This document shows positions 47,129-48,280 of a stretch of DNA of 64,000 nt, in pieces (the stretch's first letter is position 1; each line of letters opens with the position of its first letter). The notes under the pieces were generated by a model. The model was not told the origin of the DNA. It made no database searches and worked only from the letters and a program-made list of their open reading frames with translations. The DNA lies in IMG/VR virus record IMGVR_UViG_3300018080_004888, positions 1 through 64,000 of that record, one strand, 5' to 3'. The DNA comes from a virus (lineage: Duplodnaviria > Heunggongvirae > Uroviricota > Caudoviricetes). The translations under genes and the position numbers were made by a program.

Positions 47129-47203
47129 TGGTTAAACATACGGGAATTGAACCCGCTACTTTCAGTTCCGTAGACTGACGCTCTACCGATGAGCTAATGT
47201 TTG
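47129..47203 (-). tRNA. tRNA-Arg(ACG) with encoded CCA.
   Basis: D-arm GCUC-AUCGGUA-GAGC, anticodon stem UCAGU/ACUGA, anticodon loop CUACGGA, T-arm GCGGG-UUCAAUU-CCCGU, acceptor 3' strand AUGUUUA then A and CCA. Confidence 0.6.
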
Positions 47204-47233
47204 TAAGGTCCCTTGGTGGGGGACGGACAAAAG

Positions 47234-47366
47234 AGCCGGGGGCGGGATTCGAACCCGCATAAATTTCTTGGAAGGAAATCTTTTTGCCTTTTGTTTGTAA
47301 GTTATGTCTGTAGGGGACAGTTTCCTGTCCGAGTCGTCACAACTAGTAGAACTTTCGTTCCCCGGC
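47234..47366 (-). tRNA. tRNA-Gly(UCC)-like gene interrupted by a roughly 60-nt conserved element between the acceptor/D region and the anticodon arm.
   Basis: 5' acceptor GCCGGGG at 47360-47366 is perfectly complementary to CCCCGGC at 47235-47241, across an insert. The 3' part has anticodon stem AUUUC/GAAAU, anticodon loop CUUCCAA and T-arm GCGGG-UUCGAAU-CCCGC. The D-stem could not be assigned. Confidence 0.4.
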
Positions 47367-47397
47367 ATTTGCCTTCCGAAGAAGGCGGTTTTTCGGT

Positions 47398-47604
47398 TTA
47401 CCCGAATACGGCTTGTGGCCGCAATGTAATCTCTCCGTTCGCAGCACGGTCGATGGAGAAGTTGGCGAGCTTCGTGGGAGTTACACCCAACGCGGAAGCT
47501 GCCGCCTGTCGGATCTGAGAATCCGTGGACAGATCTCCGATATCCAAGTCCGTGAACTGGAAGTCGTAGCTGTGTCCGTCGTGTCGTACATGCAATTGAC
47601 TCAT
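47398..47604 (-). CDS. Small hypothetical protein (68 aa) embedded in the tRNA array.
   Basis: Strong Shine-Dalgarno sequence GGAGGAAAGAG 8 nt before ATG(MSQLHV). Confidence 0.4.
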   Translation of the reverse strand: MSQLHVRHDGHSYDFQFTDLDIGDLSTDSQIRQAAASALGVTPTKLANFSIDRAANGEITLRPQAVFG

Positions 47605-47665
47605 CTCTTTCCTCCTTCCCATCTTTCTAGTGTTTTGGGGCTGTCCAAGTTGAAAAAGCGTTCAG

Positions 47666-47736
47666 TAACAATTCCGGGTTTGAAGCCGGAACCTCCACAT
47701 TACAAGTGTGATGCTCTTCAATTGAGCTAAATTGTT
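47666..47736 (-). tRNA. tRNA-Thr(UGU).
   Basis: Acceptor AACAAUU/AAUUGUU, D-arm GCUC-AAUUGAA-GAGC, anticodon stem UCACA/UGUGG, anticodon loop CUUGUAA. The T-stem has one mismatch. Confidence 0.5.
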
Positions 47737-47766
47737 TGTAAGCTTCCTCCGTAGGGGACAGCCAAG

Positions 47767-47880
47767 TGGACGAGATCGGATTCGAACCGATTACTTTTGG
47801 AAAGCTACCATGTTTGTAAGCTTCACCTGTGGGGGACAATTTCTTGTCCAAGTCGAAGAAGCGTAAACTACTTCTCGCCC
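47767..47880 (-). ncRNA. tRNA-like gene with a split acceptor stem around the conserved insert element. No anticodon could be assigned.
   Basis: GGGCGAG (47874-47880) pairs with CUCGUCC (47768-47774) over 7 bp with one G-U. The 3' part has T-arm AUCGG-UUCGAAU-CCGAU. Confidence 0.35.
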
Positions 47881-47890
47881 GTTGTATTAG

Positions 47891-48028
47891 TGCGGGAGGC
47901 TGGAATCGAACCAGCAGTCTCAAACTTAATAGGTTTGCGTCTTTACCGTGTGTTTGTAAGTTTTCACCGTAGGGGACAGTTTCCTATCCGAGTCGTCAAA
48001 ACTGTAACAGCCATTTGACTACTCCCGC
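47891..48028 (-). tRNA. tRNA-like gene interrupted in the D-loop, with an unusual AUU anticodon.
   Basis: GCGGGAG (48022-48028) is perfectly complementary to CUCCCGC (47892-47898). The 3' exon has anticodon stem CAAAC/GUUUG, anticodon loop CUAUUAA and T-arm GCUGG-UUCGAUU-CCAGC. Confidence 0.4.
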
Positions 48029-48147
48029 GTTTGTATCGTTATCCGTCCAAGTCGAAGGAGCGGTGCCCCTCGGCTCTTCTGGCCGAGGAGCCAAGCAAAG
48101 ATCCGAAAATCGTTTGTAGGCTCACATCCGTAGGGGACGGAAAAAGG

Positions 48148-48280
48148 CGGAGGGGGTTGGAATCGAACCAACAACTTTAGTTATTCAGACTAATGTTTTA
48201 CCATGCGTTTGTATGCTATTCCAGTAGGGGACGCGGTACGTCCAAGTCGGCCAGCAAAAGAAGCGTTAAACTTCCCCTCC
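48148..48280 (-). tRNA. tRNA-Phe(GAA) interrupted in the D-loop by a roughly 62-nt element.
   Basis: Exon 1 is GGAGGGG-AA-GUUU-A. The insert runs about 48204-48266. Exon 2 is AUGGUA-AAAC-A-UUAGU-CUGAAUA-ACUAA...GUUGG-UUCGAUU-CCAAC-CCCCUCC-G. The acceptor stem (7 bp) and the D-stem GUUU/AAAC are both perfect across the insert. Confidence 0.55.

What the first reader, a model, noticed from the sequence alone, without database searches (positions are those of the whole stretch)
47197..48270. Conserved inter-tRNA element with a covarying hairpin also sits upstream of the uninterrupted tRNAs
The motif (plus strand) UGUUUGUAAG...GUAGGGGACAG-UUUC-CUGUCC-AAGUCG occurs at least eight times between 47.2 and 48.3 kb. 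Its internal hairpin keeps pairing through compensatory changes: GGACAG/CUGUCC, GGACAA/UUGUCC and GGACG-CGGUA-CGUCC. Read on the minus strand, it ends with UUACAAAC immediately 5' of tRNA-Arg(ACG) and tRNA-Thr(UGU), and inside the D-loop of the split tRNAs. Covariation argues for a structured RNA or DNA element under selection. It could be a per-gene promoter or processing signal for the array, a recognition site for a splicing or editing activity, or the mobile unit behind the D-loop insertions.
Basis: seen in the sequence. Interest (0 to 1): 0.65.

Follow-up and report, generated by a model that had tools for sequence, protein, structure and literature searches.

The report
Y-RNA-like stem fused to phage tRNAs
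The repeated element is a conserved, base-paired RNA stem that marks a cluster of tRNA-derived "Y RNAs" lying directly upstream of a phage gene for a Ro60-type RNA-binding ring protein; here the stem is unusually grafted onto whole tRNAs or inserted into their D-loops.

Summary
On the minus strand, UACAAAC occurs eight times between 47.2 and 48.3 kb, and GUCCCCYAC-N10-UACAAAC six times exactly (0.6 expected). The hairpin covaries, and a second helix (P1) covaries too.

The element is one module: P2, a conserved internal loop (RACUU / CCYAC), P1, a UAC bulge, then AAAC. It occurs only next to ORF 45480-47021(-). I show that this ORF is a divergent Ro60: all 12 best PDB fold matches are Ro60/Rsr.

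The same module recurs on the Ro60 strand, mostly upstream, in about 160 related loci. These include a 595-kb huge phage and Planctomycetota chromosomes. There the units are mostly circularly permuted tRNAs closed by a terminal stem, which is the YrlA-type Y RNA architecture. Rfam's YrlA model hits them below threshold.

In the window the module takes two forms:
- It closes whole tRNA-Thr, whole tRNA-Arg and one small non-tRNA RNA as a terminal stem.
- It sits as a tetraloop-capped hairpin in the D-loop of four normal-order tRNA-like genes.

Best explanation: a Ro60-binding Y-RNA module. Binding is inferred, not shown. Promoter, mobile-element and known-ribozyme readings are disfavoured. A removable splicing signal is not excluded. 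I class it as a new variant of a known kind.

The parts
48207..48261 (-). Module copy 1. Tetraloop-type hairpin (P1 UGCU/AGCA, P2 GGACG/CGUCC) inside the D-loop of the tRNA-Phe(GAA)-like gene.
   Evidence: Covariance-model hit of 50.8 bits, E 1e-11. Alignment A5. The RNAfold centroid shows P1 and P2.
48148..48280 (-). Interrupted tRNA-Phe(GAA)-like gene. Acceptor GGAGGGG/CCCCUCC, D-stem GUUU/AAAC; G18G19 lie just 3' of the module.
   Evidence: ARAGORN calls tRNA-Phe(GAA) after a 58-66 nt deletion. Rfam tRNA gives a partial hit at 48156-48203. The L018 orthologue has a compensated acceptor, GGGGGAG/CUCCCCC.
48042..48141 (-). Unit X, a non-tRNA small RNA closed by a terminal stem. 5' strand UCCGUCC-CCUAC...GAGC-CUACAAAC; 3' strand GCUC-CUUCGACUU-GGACGGA.
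   Evidence: 7-bp P2 between leader and trailer. The MFE fold reproduces P2 and P1, z = -3.0. The payload is conserved in L018, L019, L006 and L026.
48029..48035 (-). Orphan UACAAAC directly 5' of G1 of the next tRNA-like gene. The CCYAC half is absent.
47891..48028 (-). Interrupted tRNA-like gene with anticodon loop CUAUUAA (AUU). Acceptor GCGGGAG/CUCCCGC.
   Evidence: ARAGORN rebuilds it after a 62-68 nt deletion. The L018 orthologue has anticodon UCU, and the L018 and L026 orthologues share this acceptor 5' strand.
47952..48008 (-). Module copy in that D-loop. P1 AGUUUU/AAAACU, P2 GGAUAG/CUGUCC, loop GAAA.
   Evidence: Covariance-model hit of 68 bits. Alignment A5.
47767..47880 (-). Interrupted tRNA-like gene 3. 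Acceptor GGGCGAG/CUCGUCC, normal T-arm, shortened anticodon region (CCA).
   Evidence: Read from the sequence. ARAGORN cannot rebuild it. Similar to L006 3419-3486.
47812..47868 (-). Module copy. P0 GUUU/AAAC, P1 GCUUC/GAAGC, P2 GGACAA/UUGUCC, loop GAAA.
   Evidence: Covariance-model hit of 70.8 bits.
47639..47763 (-). Thr unit. The leader (GGCUGUCC-CCUAC-N-GAAGC-UUAC-AAAC) and the trailer (GCUUU-UUCAACUU-GGACAGCC) form a terminal stem around the whole tRNA-Thr(UGU) at 47665-47736.
   Evidence: 8-bp P2. The MFE fold has the terminal stem, z = -4.2. tRNA.
47234..47366 (-). Interrupted tRNA-like gene 4. Anticodon loop CUUCCAA (UCC), acceptor GCCGGGG/CCCCGGC, no clear D-stem.
   Evidence: Read from the sequence. 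ARAGORN does not rebuild it.
47293..47349 (-). Module copy. P1 AGUU/AACU, P2 GGACAG/CUGUCC, loop GAAA.
   Evidence: Covariance-model hit of 65.6 bits.
47098..47232 (-). Arg unit. The leader UUUUGUCCGUCC-CCCAC... and the trailer ...AAACUU-GGACGGACAGAA form a 12-bp terminal stem around the whole tRNA-Arg(ACG) at 47129-47203. The AAAC of the motif is the 5' strand of the acceptor stem.
   Evidence: 12-bp P2. The MFE fold has an 11-bp terminal stem, z = -4.1.
45480..47021 (-). Ro60 (TROVE ring plus vWA) orthologue, 513 aa from the ATG at 47021. The proposed protein partner of the module.
   Evidence: AlphaFold2 model with pLDDT 84.7. The 12 best Foldseek PDB hits are all Ro60/Rsr/TROVE, E 1e-11 to 1e-8, TM 0.56-0.65 over about 500-580 columns. 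Homologues give sub-threshold Pfam vWA_Ro60 hits. A profile hit to a PDB TROVE protein has E 0.056.
47398..47604 (-). Conserved small ORF of 68 aa (MSQLHVRHDG...ITLRPQAVFG) inside the array.
   Evidence: tblastn finds it in 57 of 83 related loci; every one of the 45 hits printed lies on the Ro60 strand, and for the loci whose gene start I compared it lies upstream. No Pfam or PHROG match.

Best explanation
The element is the protein-binding stem module of a family of tRNA-derived Y RNAs. These RNAs are encoded as an array immediately upstream of, and on the same strand as, a divergent Ro60 gene (45480-47021, minus strand).

The module, read as RNA on the minus strand:
- helix P2 (core GGAC/GUCC plus a variable extension);
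- a large conserved internal loop (one strand RACUU, the other CCYAC-N3-5);
- helix P1 (4-6 bp, freely covarying);
- a UAC bulge;
- an invariant AAAC that pairs with a GUUU.

It is attached to a tRNA body in three topologies.
(i) As a terminal leader-trailer stem that continues into the acceptor stem of a complete tRNA. In the window: tRNA-Thr, tRNA-Arg, and the non-tRNA unit X.
(ii) As a terminal stem closing a circularly permuted tRNA broken near position 26/27. This is the common form in relatives and matches the published YrlA architecture.
(iii) As a tetraloop-capped hairpin projecting from the D-loop, just 5' of G18G19, of a normal-order tRNA-like gene. There are four such copies in the window.

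Proposed mechanism (inferred, not shown). The Ro60 ring binds the conserved stem and internal loop. The tRNA or tRNA-like body is the second module of the RNP. It would act as a tRNA mimic or tether for tRNA-binding factors or a host exonuclease such as PNPase, as described for YrlA and for the Thermus phage phiLo Ro60-Yrl-PNPase complex.

Shown here: the structure, the covariation, the three topologies, the Ro60 fold, and the tight genomic linkage.
Inferred: physical binding, and what the RNP does.
For: 1. Structure. P1 and P2 covary strongly. G.U pairs work only on the sense strand.

2. Long-range pairing. Over 198 units, the R strand pairs with the L strand of the same unit for a mean of 7.55 contiguous bp. 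Shuffled pairings give 2.78 +/- 0.13, and other units of the same locus give 3.67. In the window the values are 7, 8 and 12 bp, and RNAfold reproduces them.

3. Ro60. The neighbouring ORF is Ro60 by fold, with weak sequence support.

4. Linkage. The covariance model hits only 47.2-48.3 kb in the 64-kb window. Searches of 80 and 78 sources gave 110 and 83 hits. Every hit is on the Ro60 strand, and nearly all lie within a few kb upstream. A 595-kb published huge phage has 9 hits at E<1e-9 upstream of its Ro60.

5. Architecture. In relatives the units are permuted tRNAs closed by a terminal stem. Of 274 units, 121 become ARAGORN tRNAs only after circular rotation, and 27 hold a normal tRNA.

6. 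Match to YrlA. Rfam's YrlA model hits L039 units at 33-39 bits, E 1e-6 to 6e-5. The YrlA consensus carries AaAcUuG on the 3' side of its internal loop and a CUA bulge. These correspond to the RACUUG and UAC seen here.

7. Precedent. Y RNAs are encoded next to Ro60 in more than 250 bacteria and phages and mimic tRNAs (PMC4201824). Thermus phage phiLo has two Yrl RNAs upstream of its Ro60, which bind it and PNPase (PMC12135203). YrlA was described as resembling a circularly permuted tRNA, possibly derived from dimeric tRNA transcripts (bioRxiv 10.1101/312249).

8. Anticodons. The anticodons of the payloads are almost unconstrained. They include many A34 triplets that, to my knowledge, bacteria do not use (AAA, AAU, AGG, AUG, AGU, ACU, AUU), plus 2- and 4-nt 'anticodons'. 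Orthologues differ in anticodon: AUU against UCU, ACG against AAG. This fits mimics rather than decoders.
Against: - No binding data exist. Adjacency is not interaction.
- The published Ro-binding motif (GNCGAAN0-1G, or CGAA) is not present at the equivalent place. The 5' strand here reads GUCC-CCYAC.
- Rfam's YrlA model does not reach its gathering score on any copy: 17 bits in the window.
- In four window copies the stem is closed by a tetraloop rather than formed by the RNA's ends, which no described Y RNA shows.
- The absolutely invariant UACAAAC has no explanation in the Y-RNA model.
- tRNA-Thr(UGU) and tRNA-Arg(ACG) look like ordinary functional tRNAs. For them the stem could simply be a precursor processing stem.
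- A strong terminator-like hairpin separates the array from the Ro60 start codon, so co-transcription is not assured.
Confidence: 0.62

Rival explanations
1. Removable processing signal. The module would be recognised by an endonuclease that cuts both strands at its base, and an RNA ligase (RtcB type) would join the ends. This would splice the D-loop hairpins out of the four interrupted tRNAs and circularise the permuted tRNAs of relatives before RNase P/Z opens the acceptor stem. It would be a bacterial and phage counterpart of archaeal and algal BHB-dependent maturation. Ro60 could be a cofactor.
For: - The three topologies (intron-like, permuted, leader-trailer stem) are the ones that one BHB machinery handles in archaea and in Cyanidioschyzon (established knowledge; also discussed for YrlA in bioRxiv 10.1101/312249).
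- The interrupted genes keep perfect 7-bp acceptor stems, T-arms, G18G19 and 7-nt anticodon loops with U33.
- Acceptor stems of orthologues are compensated across the insertion: window GGAGGGG/CCCCUCC against L018 GGGGGAG/CUCCCCC.
- The invariant 4-bp AAAC/GUUU helix next to a 3-nt UAC bulge resembles half of a bulge-helix-bulge.
- In cellular genomes Ro60 and Y RNA are often linked to RtcB (PMC7790460, PMC7824862).
Against: - No splicing endonuclease or RNA ligase family appears among the 25 of 32 matched Pfam families that were listed for 97 window ORFs. Seven matched families were not shown, and the rest of the genome is unseen.
- The 5' end of the intact tRNAs falls at 3, 4, 5 or 6 nt before the end of UACAAAC in different genes. 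The motif therefore does not set a fixed cut site.
- The strand opposite the UAC bulge has 2-6 unpaired nt, which is not BHB geometry.
- Payload anticodons look unconstrained and often unusable.
- Genes 3 and 4 lack a proper anticodon arm or D-stem even after removal.
- 126 of 274 units carry no recognisable tRNA.
Confidence: 0.15
2. Plain precursor-processing stem. Leader and trailer pair so that a host double-strand RNase (RNase III), together with RNase P/Z, separates the tRNAs and small RNAs of a polycistronic transcript, as in rRNA operons and T7 early mRNAs. Ro60 would be unrelated.
For: - Leader-trailer stems of 7-12 bp with an internal loop flank tRNA-Thr, tRNA-Arg and unit X.
- The last copy in many relatives precedes the Ro60 mRNA itself by 63-275 nt.
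Against: - It does not explain the hairpins inside D-loops.
- It does not explain why the unpaired loop bases and UACAAAC are invariant across phyla while the helices vary.
- It does not explain why the element occurs only at the Ro60 locus and not at the other 13 tRNAs of the same array.
Confidence: 0.1
3. A small self-cleaving ribozyme that cuts after UACAAAC to release the downstream RNA with a defined 5' end.
For: - A compact (about 57 nt) conserved two-helix fold with an invariant internal loop and an invariant 3' heptamer placed directly before RNA 5' ends.
Against: - No Rfam ribozyme family matches even at E up to 10.
- In topology (i) the AAAC is base-paired inside the mature tRNA's acceptor stem, and the tRNA 5' end is not at a fixed distance from the motif.
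- In terminal-stem units the two halves of the fold are 40-170 nt apart.
Confidence: 0.04
4. A DNA-level element: either a per-gene promoter (CCYAC box plus TACAAAC box) fused to a terminator hairpin, or a miniature mobile element that inserted into D-loops.
For: - Two conserved boxes at a fixed 10-bp spacing in front of every unit and of the Ro60 gene.
- In distant relatives the L half is often followed by a T-run.
- The element is repeated and interrupts genes.
Against: - Sequence upstream of the putative -35-like box pairs with sequence beyond the payload and covaries with it. It is therefore transcribed with the unit.
- The spacer of the putative promoter covaries with the L half (P1).
- No copy lies elsewhere in 64 kb.
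- Helices vary while loops are fixed, and G.U pairs are strand-specific. Both are the opposite of terminal inverted repeats.
- Insertions are orthologous and ancient, not polymorphic.
Confidence: 0.04

Closest known systems
YrlA-type bacterial and phage Y RNAs (Rfam RF02553; Chen et al. 2014, PMC4201824; Wang et al. 2018, bioRxiv 10.1101/312249)
   Same: - Encoded next to a Ro60 gene, on the same strand.
- Modular: a long stem with a conserved internal loop, plus a tRNA-like domain.
- Relatives of the window show the same order (stem 5' strand, V, T-arm, closed acceptor stem, D-arm, stem 3' strand).
- Those relatives are hit by the YrlA model at E 1e-6 to 6e-5.
- Shared AAACUUG on the 3' side of the loop, and a 3-nt YUA/UAC bulge before the innermost 4-bp helix.
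   Different: - The 5'-strand motif is GUCC-CCYAC...UACAAAC, not GNCGAA(N)G.
- Scores are far below the Rfam gathering score.
- Units keep a full anticodon arm, which YrlA lacks.
- Arrays hold 5-10 units instead of 1-2.
- In the window, the stem closes complete normal-order tRNAs or is a capped hairpin in the D-loop. Neither has been described for Y RNAs.
- The Ro60 is so divergent that Pfam's TROVE model does not detect it.
Thermus phage phiLo Ro60 with Yrl1 and Yrl2 (PMC12135203; PDB 9KOP, 9L5Y)
   Same: - A phage-encoded Ro60 with Y-RNA-like genes directly upstream.
- The window protein's predicted structure matches 9KOP and 9L5Y.
   Different: - phiLo has two stem-bulge-stem RNAs with the CGAA motif and no tRNA body.
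- Here there are at least seven module-bearing units fused to tRNAs, with a different motif.
Circularly permuted tRNA genes of Cyanidioschyzon merolae, and archaeal non-canonical tRNA introns and split tRNAs (BHB-dependent)
   Same: - The same set of gene topologies: insertion at D-loop or 26/27 positions, and permuted halves joined through the acceptor end.
- Leader and trailer pair to form a stem.
   Different: - No bulge-helix-bulge geometry.
- No splicing endonuclease identified.
- The context is bacterial or phage.
- There is no evidence that the stem is removed.
Group I introns in bacterial and phage tRNA genes
   Same: They interrupt tRNA genes. Two true group I introns lie further along the same array (51879-52066 and 52871-53069).
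   Different: - The element is about 57 nt, lies in the D-loop rather than the anticodon loop, and has no group I core.
- No Rfam hit.

Membership tests
Y RNA (YrlA type) | Gene lies next to a Ro60/TROVE gene. | tested here: met
   The array ends 77 nt upstream of ORF 45480-47021, on the same strand. The ORF's model matches Ro60 structures over its full length. The linkage is repeated in about 160 loci.
Y RNA (YrlA type) | A long stem formed by the RNA's 5' and 3' ends, carrying a conserved bulge or internal loop. | tested here: met
   Met for the Thr, Arg and X units of the window (8, 12 and 7 bp of P2, plus P1) and family-wide. Not met for the four D-loop copies, whose stem is capped by a tetraloop.
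Y RNA (YrlA type) | A tRNA-like domain with the T-arm 5' of the D-arm and a loop-closed acceptor stem (permuted order). | tested here: not met
   In the window all six tRNA bodies are in normal order with open acceptor stems. In relatives the feature is met: L039 and L070, and 121 of 274 units.
Y RNA (YrlA type) | The Ro-binding sequence GNCGAAN0-1G, or CGAA, in the 5' strand. | tested here: not met
   The 5' strand reads GUCC-CCYAC-N-(P1)-UACAAAC. Only some distant copies contain GGCGAAAG, and at a different position.
Y RNA (YrlA type) | Reaches the Rfam RF02553 gathering score (69 bits). | tested here: not met
   17 bits in the window. 33-39 bits in L039. None at gathering threshold in 15 loci.
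Y RNA (YrlA type) | Physically bound by Ro60. | not testable with these tools
   Needs gel shift, RIP-seq or a structure of the complex.
BHB-type tRNA intron or permuted pre-tRNA | Two 3-nt bulges on opposite strands separated by a 4-bp helix at the exon-intron borders. | tested here: not met
   By inspection. A UAC bulge and a 4-bp AAAC/GUUU helix exist, but the opposite strand has 2-6 unpaired nt next to P1 and a variable 0-4 nt at the tRNA side.
BHB-type tRNA intron or permuted pre-tRNA | A splicing endonuclease and an RNA ligase are available. | tested here: inconclusive
   Neither family is among the 25 of 32 matched Pfam families that were listed for 97 window ORFs. Seven matched families were not shown. 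The rest of the phage genome and the host are unseen.
Known small ribozymes and group I introns (Rfam) | Match to a curated covariance model. | tested here: not met
   The scan of 46900-48500 at E up to 10 returned only tRNA and chance-level hits.
Sigma-70-type promoter | -35 and -10 hexamers about 17 bp apart, with transcription starting downstream of them. | tested here: not met
   The boxes are 10 bp apart. TTGGAC to TACAAA spacing varies over 9, 19 and 27 bp. Bases upstream of the boxes covary with the unit's 3' end.
MITE / mobile insertion | Conserved terminal inverted repeats, with variable presence among related genomes. | tested here: not met
   The helices vary with compensation while the loops are fixed. 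Orthologous insertions are retained in the window, L018 and L026.

The most novel reading that the evidence does not exclude
The module is a removable, protein-recognised maturation signal. Phages and Planctomycetota would then possess a previously unknown tRNA splicing and circularisation pathway, analogous to the archaeal and eukaryal BHB system. It would turn D-loop-interrupted and circularly permuted tRNA genes into working tRNAs, with Ro60 as the scaffold and an RtcB-type ligase as the joiner.
Probability: 0.12. Interest if true: 0.95.

Novelty: new variant of a known kind. Interest (0 to 1): 0.68.

Why it matters
Y RNAs and Ro60 are conserved from bacteria to humans, yet their origin and their bacterial and phage functions are poorly understood.

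Published work proposed that YrlA Y RNAs derive from tRNAs, possibly from dimeric tRNA transcripts. It also noted their likeness to circularly permuted tRNAs.

This locus and its roughly 160 relatives supply the intermediate forms that model predicts. The same Ro60-linked stem is found on whole tRNAs, on permuted tRNAs that still carry anticodon arms, and as a hairpin between the two parts of a normal-order tRNA.

The data also define a large clade of Ro60 proteins and their RNAs that neither the Pfam TROVE model nor Rfam detects at threshold. At least 2,999 proteins were found, in huge phages, Planctomycetota, Chloroflexota and Cyanobacteria. That gives many new systems for testing what phage Ro60 RNPs do, for example hijacking host exonucleases or decoying tRNA-targeting defences.

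If the module proved to be excised, this would be the first protein-dependent tRNA splicing or permutation pathway in bacteria.

Tried and rejected
- Sigma-70 promoter reading. TTGGAC to TACAAA spacing is 9, 19 or 27 bp, and the CCYAC and TACAAAC boxes are only 10 bp apart. Rejected after the long-range covariation result.
- Known RNA families. The Rfam gathering scan of the window and the permissive scan of 46.9-48.5 kb gave only tRNAs, two distant group I introns and chance hits.
- Near and distant DNA searches against cultured and deposited phages. No relative except a tRNA-level match to LR756511.1.
- Integron attC reading. TACAAAC does not fit RYYYAAC, and GTTTGTA does not fit GTTRRRY. 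Dropped.
- Hammerhead, hairpin, twister and pistol cores were looked for by eye and not found.
- A permuted reading of the window itself (3' part of one tRNA plus 5' part of the next as one unit). Rejected because acceptor strands match across the hairpin at 7/7 but only 5/7 across the spacer, and because P1 covaries with the adjacent half, not the distant one.
- First attempt at the long-range stem statistic had a 1-nt register error for CCCAAC-type copies. Repeated with register freedom applied equally to the controls.
- Pfam, PHROG and NCBIfam scans of the 520-aa ORF gave only a weak VWA_2 hit. The identity came from the structure prediction.
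Full report
**Context**

The window is phage-like. It encodes a Gp23-type major capsid protein and many orphan ORFs. Its close relatives are IMG/VR contigs of 238-390 kb and the 595-kb uncultured huge phage LR756511.1. Genes and a 17-gene tRNA array (47.1-52.2 kb) run on the minus strand. All sequences below are read on the minus strand as RNA.

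- UACAAAC occurs eight times between 47199 and 48213. The window total is 14, against 5.7 expected.
- GUCCCCYAC-N10-UACAAAC occurs six times exactly (0.6 expected with up to 3 mismatches).
- A second conserved half, (A)CGCUUCUU-CGACUUGGAC or AGUUNUGA-CGACUCGGAY, lies 5' of four of them and is joined to them by a short hairpin.
- Four copies sit inside tRNA-like genes whose 5' acceptor strand lies upstream and whose T-arm and 3' acceptor strand lie downstream. Acceptor pairing is 7/7 in all four.
- Deleting 58-68 nt ending at ACAAAC lets ARAGORN call tRNA-Phe(GAA) and a tRNA with anticodon AUU. The other two cannot be rebuilt.
- In each case the insertion lies just 5' of the D-loop GG.
- Two further copies abut tRNA-Thr(UGU) and tRNA-Arg(ACG). 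There the final AAAC (or AAC) is the start of the acceptor stem and pairs with GUUU at the tRNA's 3' strand.

**Anatomy of the element**

I compared the window with a relative (contig 3300015263_000944) and then with 34 tight copies from ten phage-like contigs. The element is more than a hairpin. It consists of:
- P1, 4-6 bp, for example GCUUC/GAAGC, AGUUUU/AAAACU, UGCU/AGCA, AGUUUC/GAAACU;
- a conserved internal loop, RACUU on one strand and CCYAC-N3-5 on the other;
- P2, with core GGAC/GUCC. Swaps include GGGC/GCCC, AGAC/GUCU, GAAC/GUUC and, in distant relatives, GUAC/GUAC. It has a variable extension and GAAA, UUCG or CUCG loops;
- a UAC bulge;
- an invariant AAAC.

On the 34 copies, 88.9% of cells pair. 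There are 72 double-sided changes, against 22.6 +/- 5.7 in column shuffles (0/500), and only 32-51% pairing when partners are slid. A covariance model built from them finds 110 copies in 80 sources, with 88.1% pairing and 168 against 50 +/- 7.7 double changes. Several P2 extensions contain G.U pairs that would be C.A on the other strand. The structure is therefore RNA, on the tRNA-sense strand.

**The neighbouring gene is Ro60**

The array ends 77 nt upstream of a 513-aa ORF (45480-47021). This ORF holds the same position in every relative.

Sequence methods see only a weak vWA domain. Homologues give sub-threshold hits to Pfam's "Ro60 vWA domain", and a four-sequence profile touches a PDB "TROVE domain-containing protein" at E 0.056.

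An AlphaFold2 model (pLDDT 84.7) settles the matter. The twelve best PDB matches are all Ro60 proteins: Xenopus, human, Deinococcus Rsr and Thermus phage phiLo. They have E 1e-11 to 1e-8 and TM 0.56-0.65 over about 500-580 columns. The next matches cover only the vWA domain.

The family is large, with at least 2,999 proteins and contigs up to 693 kb. It is not only viral. A scan of reference genomes finds it in multi-megabase contigs of Planctomycetota (for example Aeoliella, Rubripirellula) and in Chloroflexota, Cyanobacteria and others.

**The element travels with Ro60**

- Within the window, the model hits only 47.2-48.3 kb. The other 13 tRNAs of the array lack it.
- In 80 metagenomic loci, [TC]ACAAAC with a CCNAM box recurs upstream of the gene and rarely downstream.
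- All 110 and 83 model hits in two batches of loci are on the Ro60 strand, nearly all within a few kb upstream.
- LR756511.1 has nine strong copies in the 4.2 kb upstream of its Ro60.
- A chromosomal Aeoliella locus has six units.

**What the units are in relatives**

In distant relatives (L039, L070, L127) the stretch between successive UACAAAC motifs is a circularly permuted tRNA. In order, it comprises: anticodon arm, variable loop, T-arm, 3' acceptor strand, a 5-17 nt linker, 5' acceptor strand, D-arm, then GUUU, P1 and RACUUG-P2. The acceptor strands match within the unit.

There the R half at the 5' end pairs with the L half at the 3' end of the same unit. Examples are CCCCGUAC/GUACGGGG and UUUCCGUAC/GUACGGAAA. 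The latter is the last unit before the Ro60 ribosome-binding site and has no downstream partner.

Over 198 units this long-range P2 averages 7.55 contiguous bp. Shuffled pairings give 2.78 +/- 0.13, and other units of the same locus give 3.67. Where the L-to-R connector is long, own-unit pairing wins 33:8. Where it is a tetraloop, the adjacent hairpin wins 9:2.

This is the published YrlA architecture: a terminal Ro60-binding stem plus a permuted tRNA-like domain (PMC4201824; bioRxiv 10.1101/312249). Rfam's YrlA model hits four L039 units at 33-39 bits, E 1e-6 to 6e-5, which is significant but below the 69-bit gathering score. The YrlA consensus printed in that call has AaAcUuG on the 3' side of its internal loop and a CUA bulge before the innermost 4-bp helix. 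These correspond to the RACUUG, UAC and AAAC/GUUU found here. The 5'-strand motif differs: GNCGAA in YrlA, GUCC-CCYAC here.

**The window re-read**

The same long-range pairing is present in the window.
- GGCUGUCC...GGACAGCC (8 bp) encloses tRNA-Thr.
- UUUUGUCCGUCC...GGACGGACAGAA (12 bp) encloses tRNA-Arg.
- UCCGUCC...GGACGGA (7 bp, with P1 GAGC/GCUC) encloses a conserved non-tRNA RNA, unit X.

RNAfold reproduces all three (z = -4.1, -4.2, -3.0).

The window therefore holds one module in two topologies, with a third common in relatives:
- (i) a terminal stem continuing into the acceptor stem of a whole tRNA;
- (ii) a terminal stem on a permuted tRNA (relatives only);
- (iii) a capped hairpin in the D-loop of a normal-order tRNA.

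Type (iii) is confined to the phage-like clade (at least 61% Ro60 identity). Formally, (ii) and (iii) are the two ways of reading a tandem array of half-tRNAs and half-stems. This fits the published idea that YrlA arose from dimeric tRNA transcripts.

**Mimics or working tRNAs?**

Of 274 terminal-stem units, 27 contain a normal tRNA, 121 give a tRNA only after circular rotation (break mostly 26-31 nt from the 5' end), and 126 give none.

Their anticodons are scattered over most of the code. They include many A34 triplets that, to my knowledge, bacteria do not use (AAA, AAU, AGG, AUG, AGU, ACU, AUU), and some 2- or 4-nt "anticodons". Orthologues differ in anticodon: window AUU against L018 UCU, and window Arg ACG against L017 Leu AAG.

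The shape of the anticodon loop is kept, but the triplet is not. This favours tRNA mimicry over decoding. tRNA-Thr(UGU) and tRNA-Arg(ACG) could nevertheless be released by RNase P/Z and used.

**Interpretation**

I conclude that the element is the stem module of a new variant of YrlA-type Y RNAs, most likely the binding site of the adjacent Ro60.

Shown: the structure, the covariation, the topologies, the Ro60 fold, and linkage across phyla.
Inferred: binding, and the role of the RNP. Precedents are tethering of PNPase by Deinococcus and Salmonella Y RNAs, and by phage phiLo Yrl RNAs (PMC12135203).

The main rival is that the module is removed by cutting and ligation, which would make these true interrupted and permuted tRNA genes. 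I cannot exclude it and give it about 0.12-0.15.

A promoter is excluded by the covariation of bases upstream of the boxes with the far end of the unit. A MITE is excluded by variable helices with fixed loops. Known ribozymes and introns are excluded by Rfam.

**Unexplained**

- Why UACAAAC is absolutely invariant across phyla.
- Why AAAC/GUUU never covaries.
- What the conserved 68-aa ORF inside the array does.

Noticed in passing
window 47398-47604 (-): A 68-aa ORF (MSQLHVRHDG...ITLRPQAVFG) sits inside the Y-RNA array. tblastn finds it in 57 of 83 related loci, on the Ro60 strand in every hit printed. It has no Pfam or PHROG family. It may be a third component of the system.
   Followed up: partly
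window 51879-52066 (-) and 52871-53069 (-): Two Rfam group I introns (67 and 65 bits) lie at the far end of the same tRNA array, one next to tRNA-Lys(UUU) at 52094-52167. An HNH_5 endonuclease family is also matched somewhere in the window.
   Followed up: no
window 48042-48141 (-); also L018 ~7766, L019 ~8544, L006 ~2685, L026 ~4435: Unit X is a conserved non-tRNA small RNA (UACAAAC-NNCUUCGGAU-UUUG-GC-rich hairpin-...RACUUGGAY) enclosed by the same terminal stem. It may be the YrlB-like member of the array.
   Followed up: partly
window 47045-47085 (-): A strong terminator-like hairpin with a U-run (GAAACCGAACUUGGCG...CGCCAAGUUCGGUUUUUU) lies between the last Y-RNA unit and the Ro60 ribosome-binding site. 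Ro60 may therefore be expressed by read-through or from its own start.
   Followed up: no
window 47891-48028 (-); L018 ~8105-8260; L017 1452-1526: Orthologous tRNA bodies change anticodon between related phages: AUU in the window against UCU in L018, and Arg ACG in the window against Leu AAG in L017. Some relatives have 8-nt anticodon loops or 4-nt 'anticodons' (L006 ~2049, L181 2543-2618).
   Followed up: partly
L101-L180 (genome contigs), e.g. L127 Aeoliella sp. 4.8-Mb contig, 1800-3010: The divergent Ro60 and its RNA array are chromosomal in many Planctomycetota. They also occur in Chloroflexota, Cyanobacteria, Armatimonadota and Desulfobacterales MAGs. Neither the protein nor the RNAs reach Pfam TROVE or Rfam thresholds.
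   Followed up: partly
whole window (97 ORFs): Auxiliary genes unusual for a phage: APS kinase, two sulfotransferases, Glu/Leu/Phe/Val dehydrogenase, saccharopine dehydrogenase, ThiF plus a JAB domain, and seven ORFs with TAT signal peptides. Gp23 capsid is also present.
   Followed up: no
window 48284-48281 and 47887-47881 (-): The 5' leaders of the interrupted tRNA-like genes also end in UAC or UACAAC just before G1 (AAAUAC|GGAGGGG, AUACAAC|GGGCGAG). This echoes the UACAAAC motif even where the rest of the module is absent.
   Followed up: no
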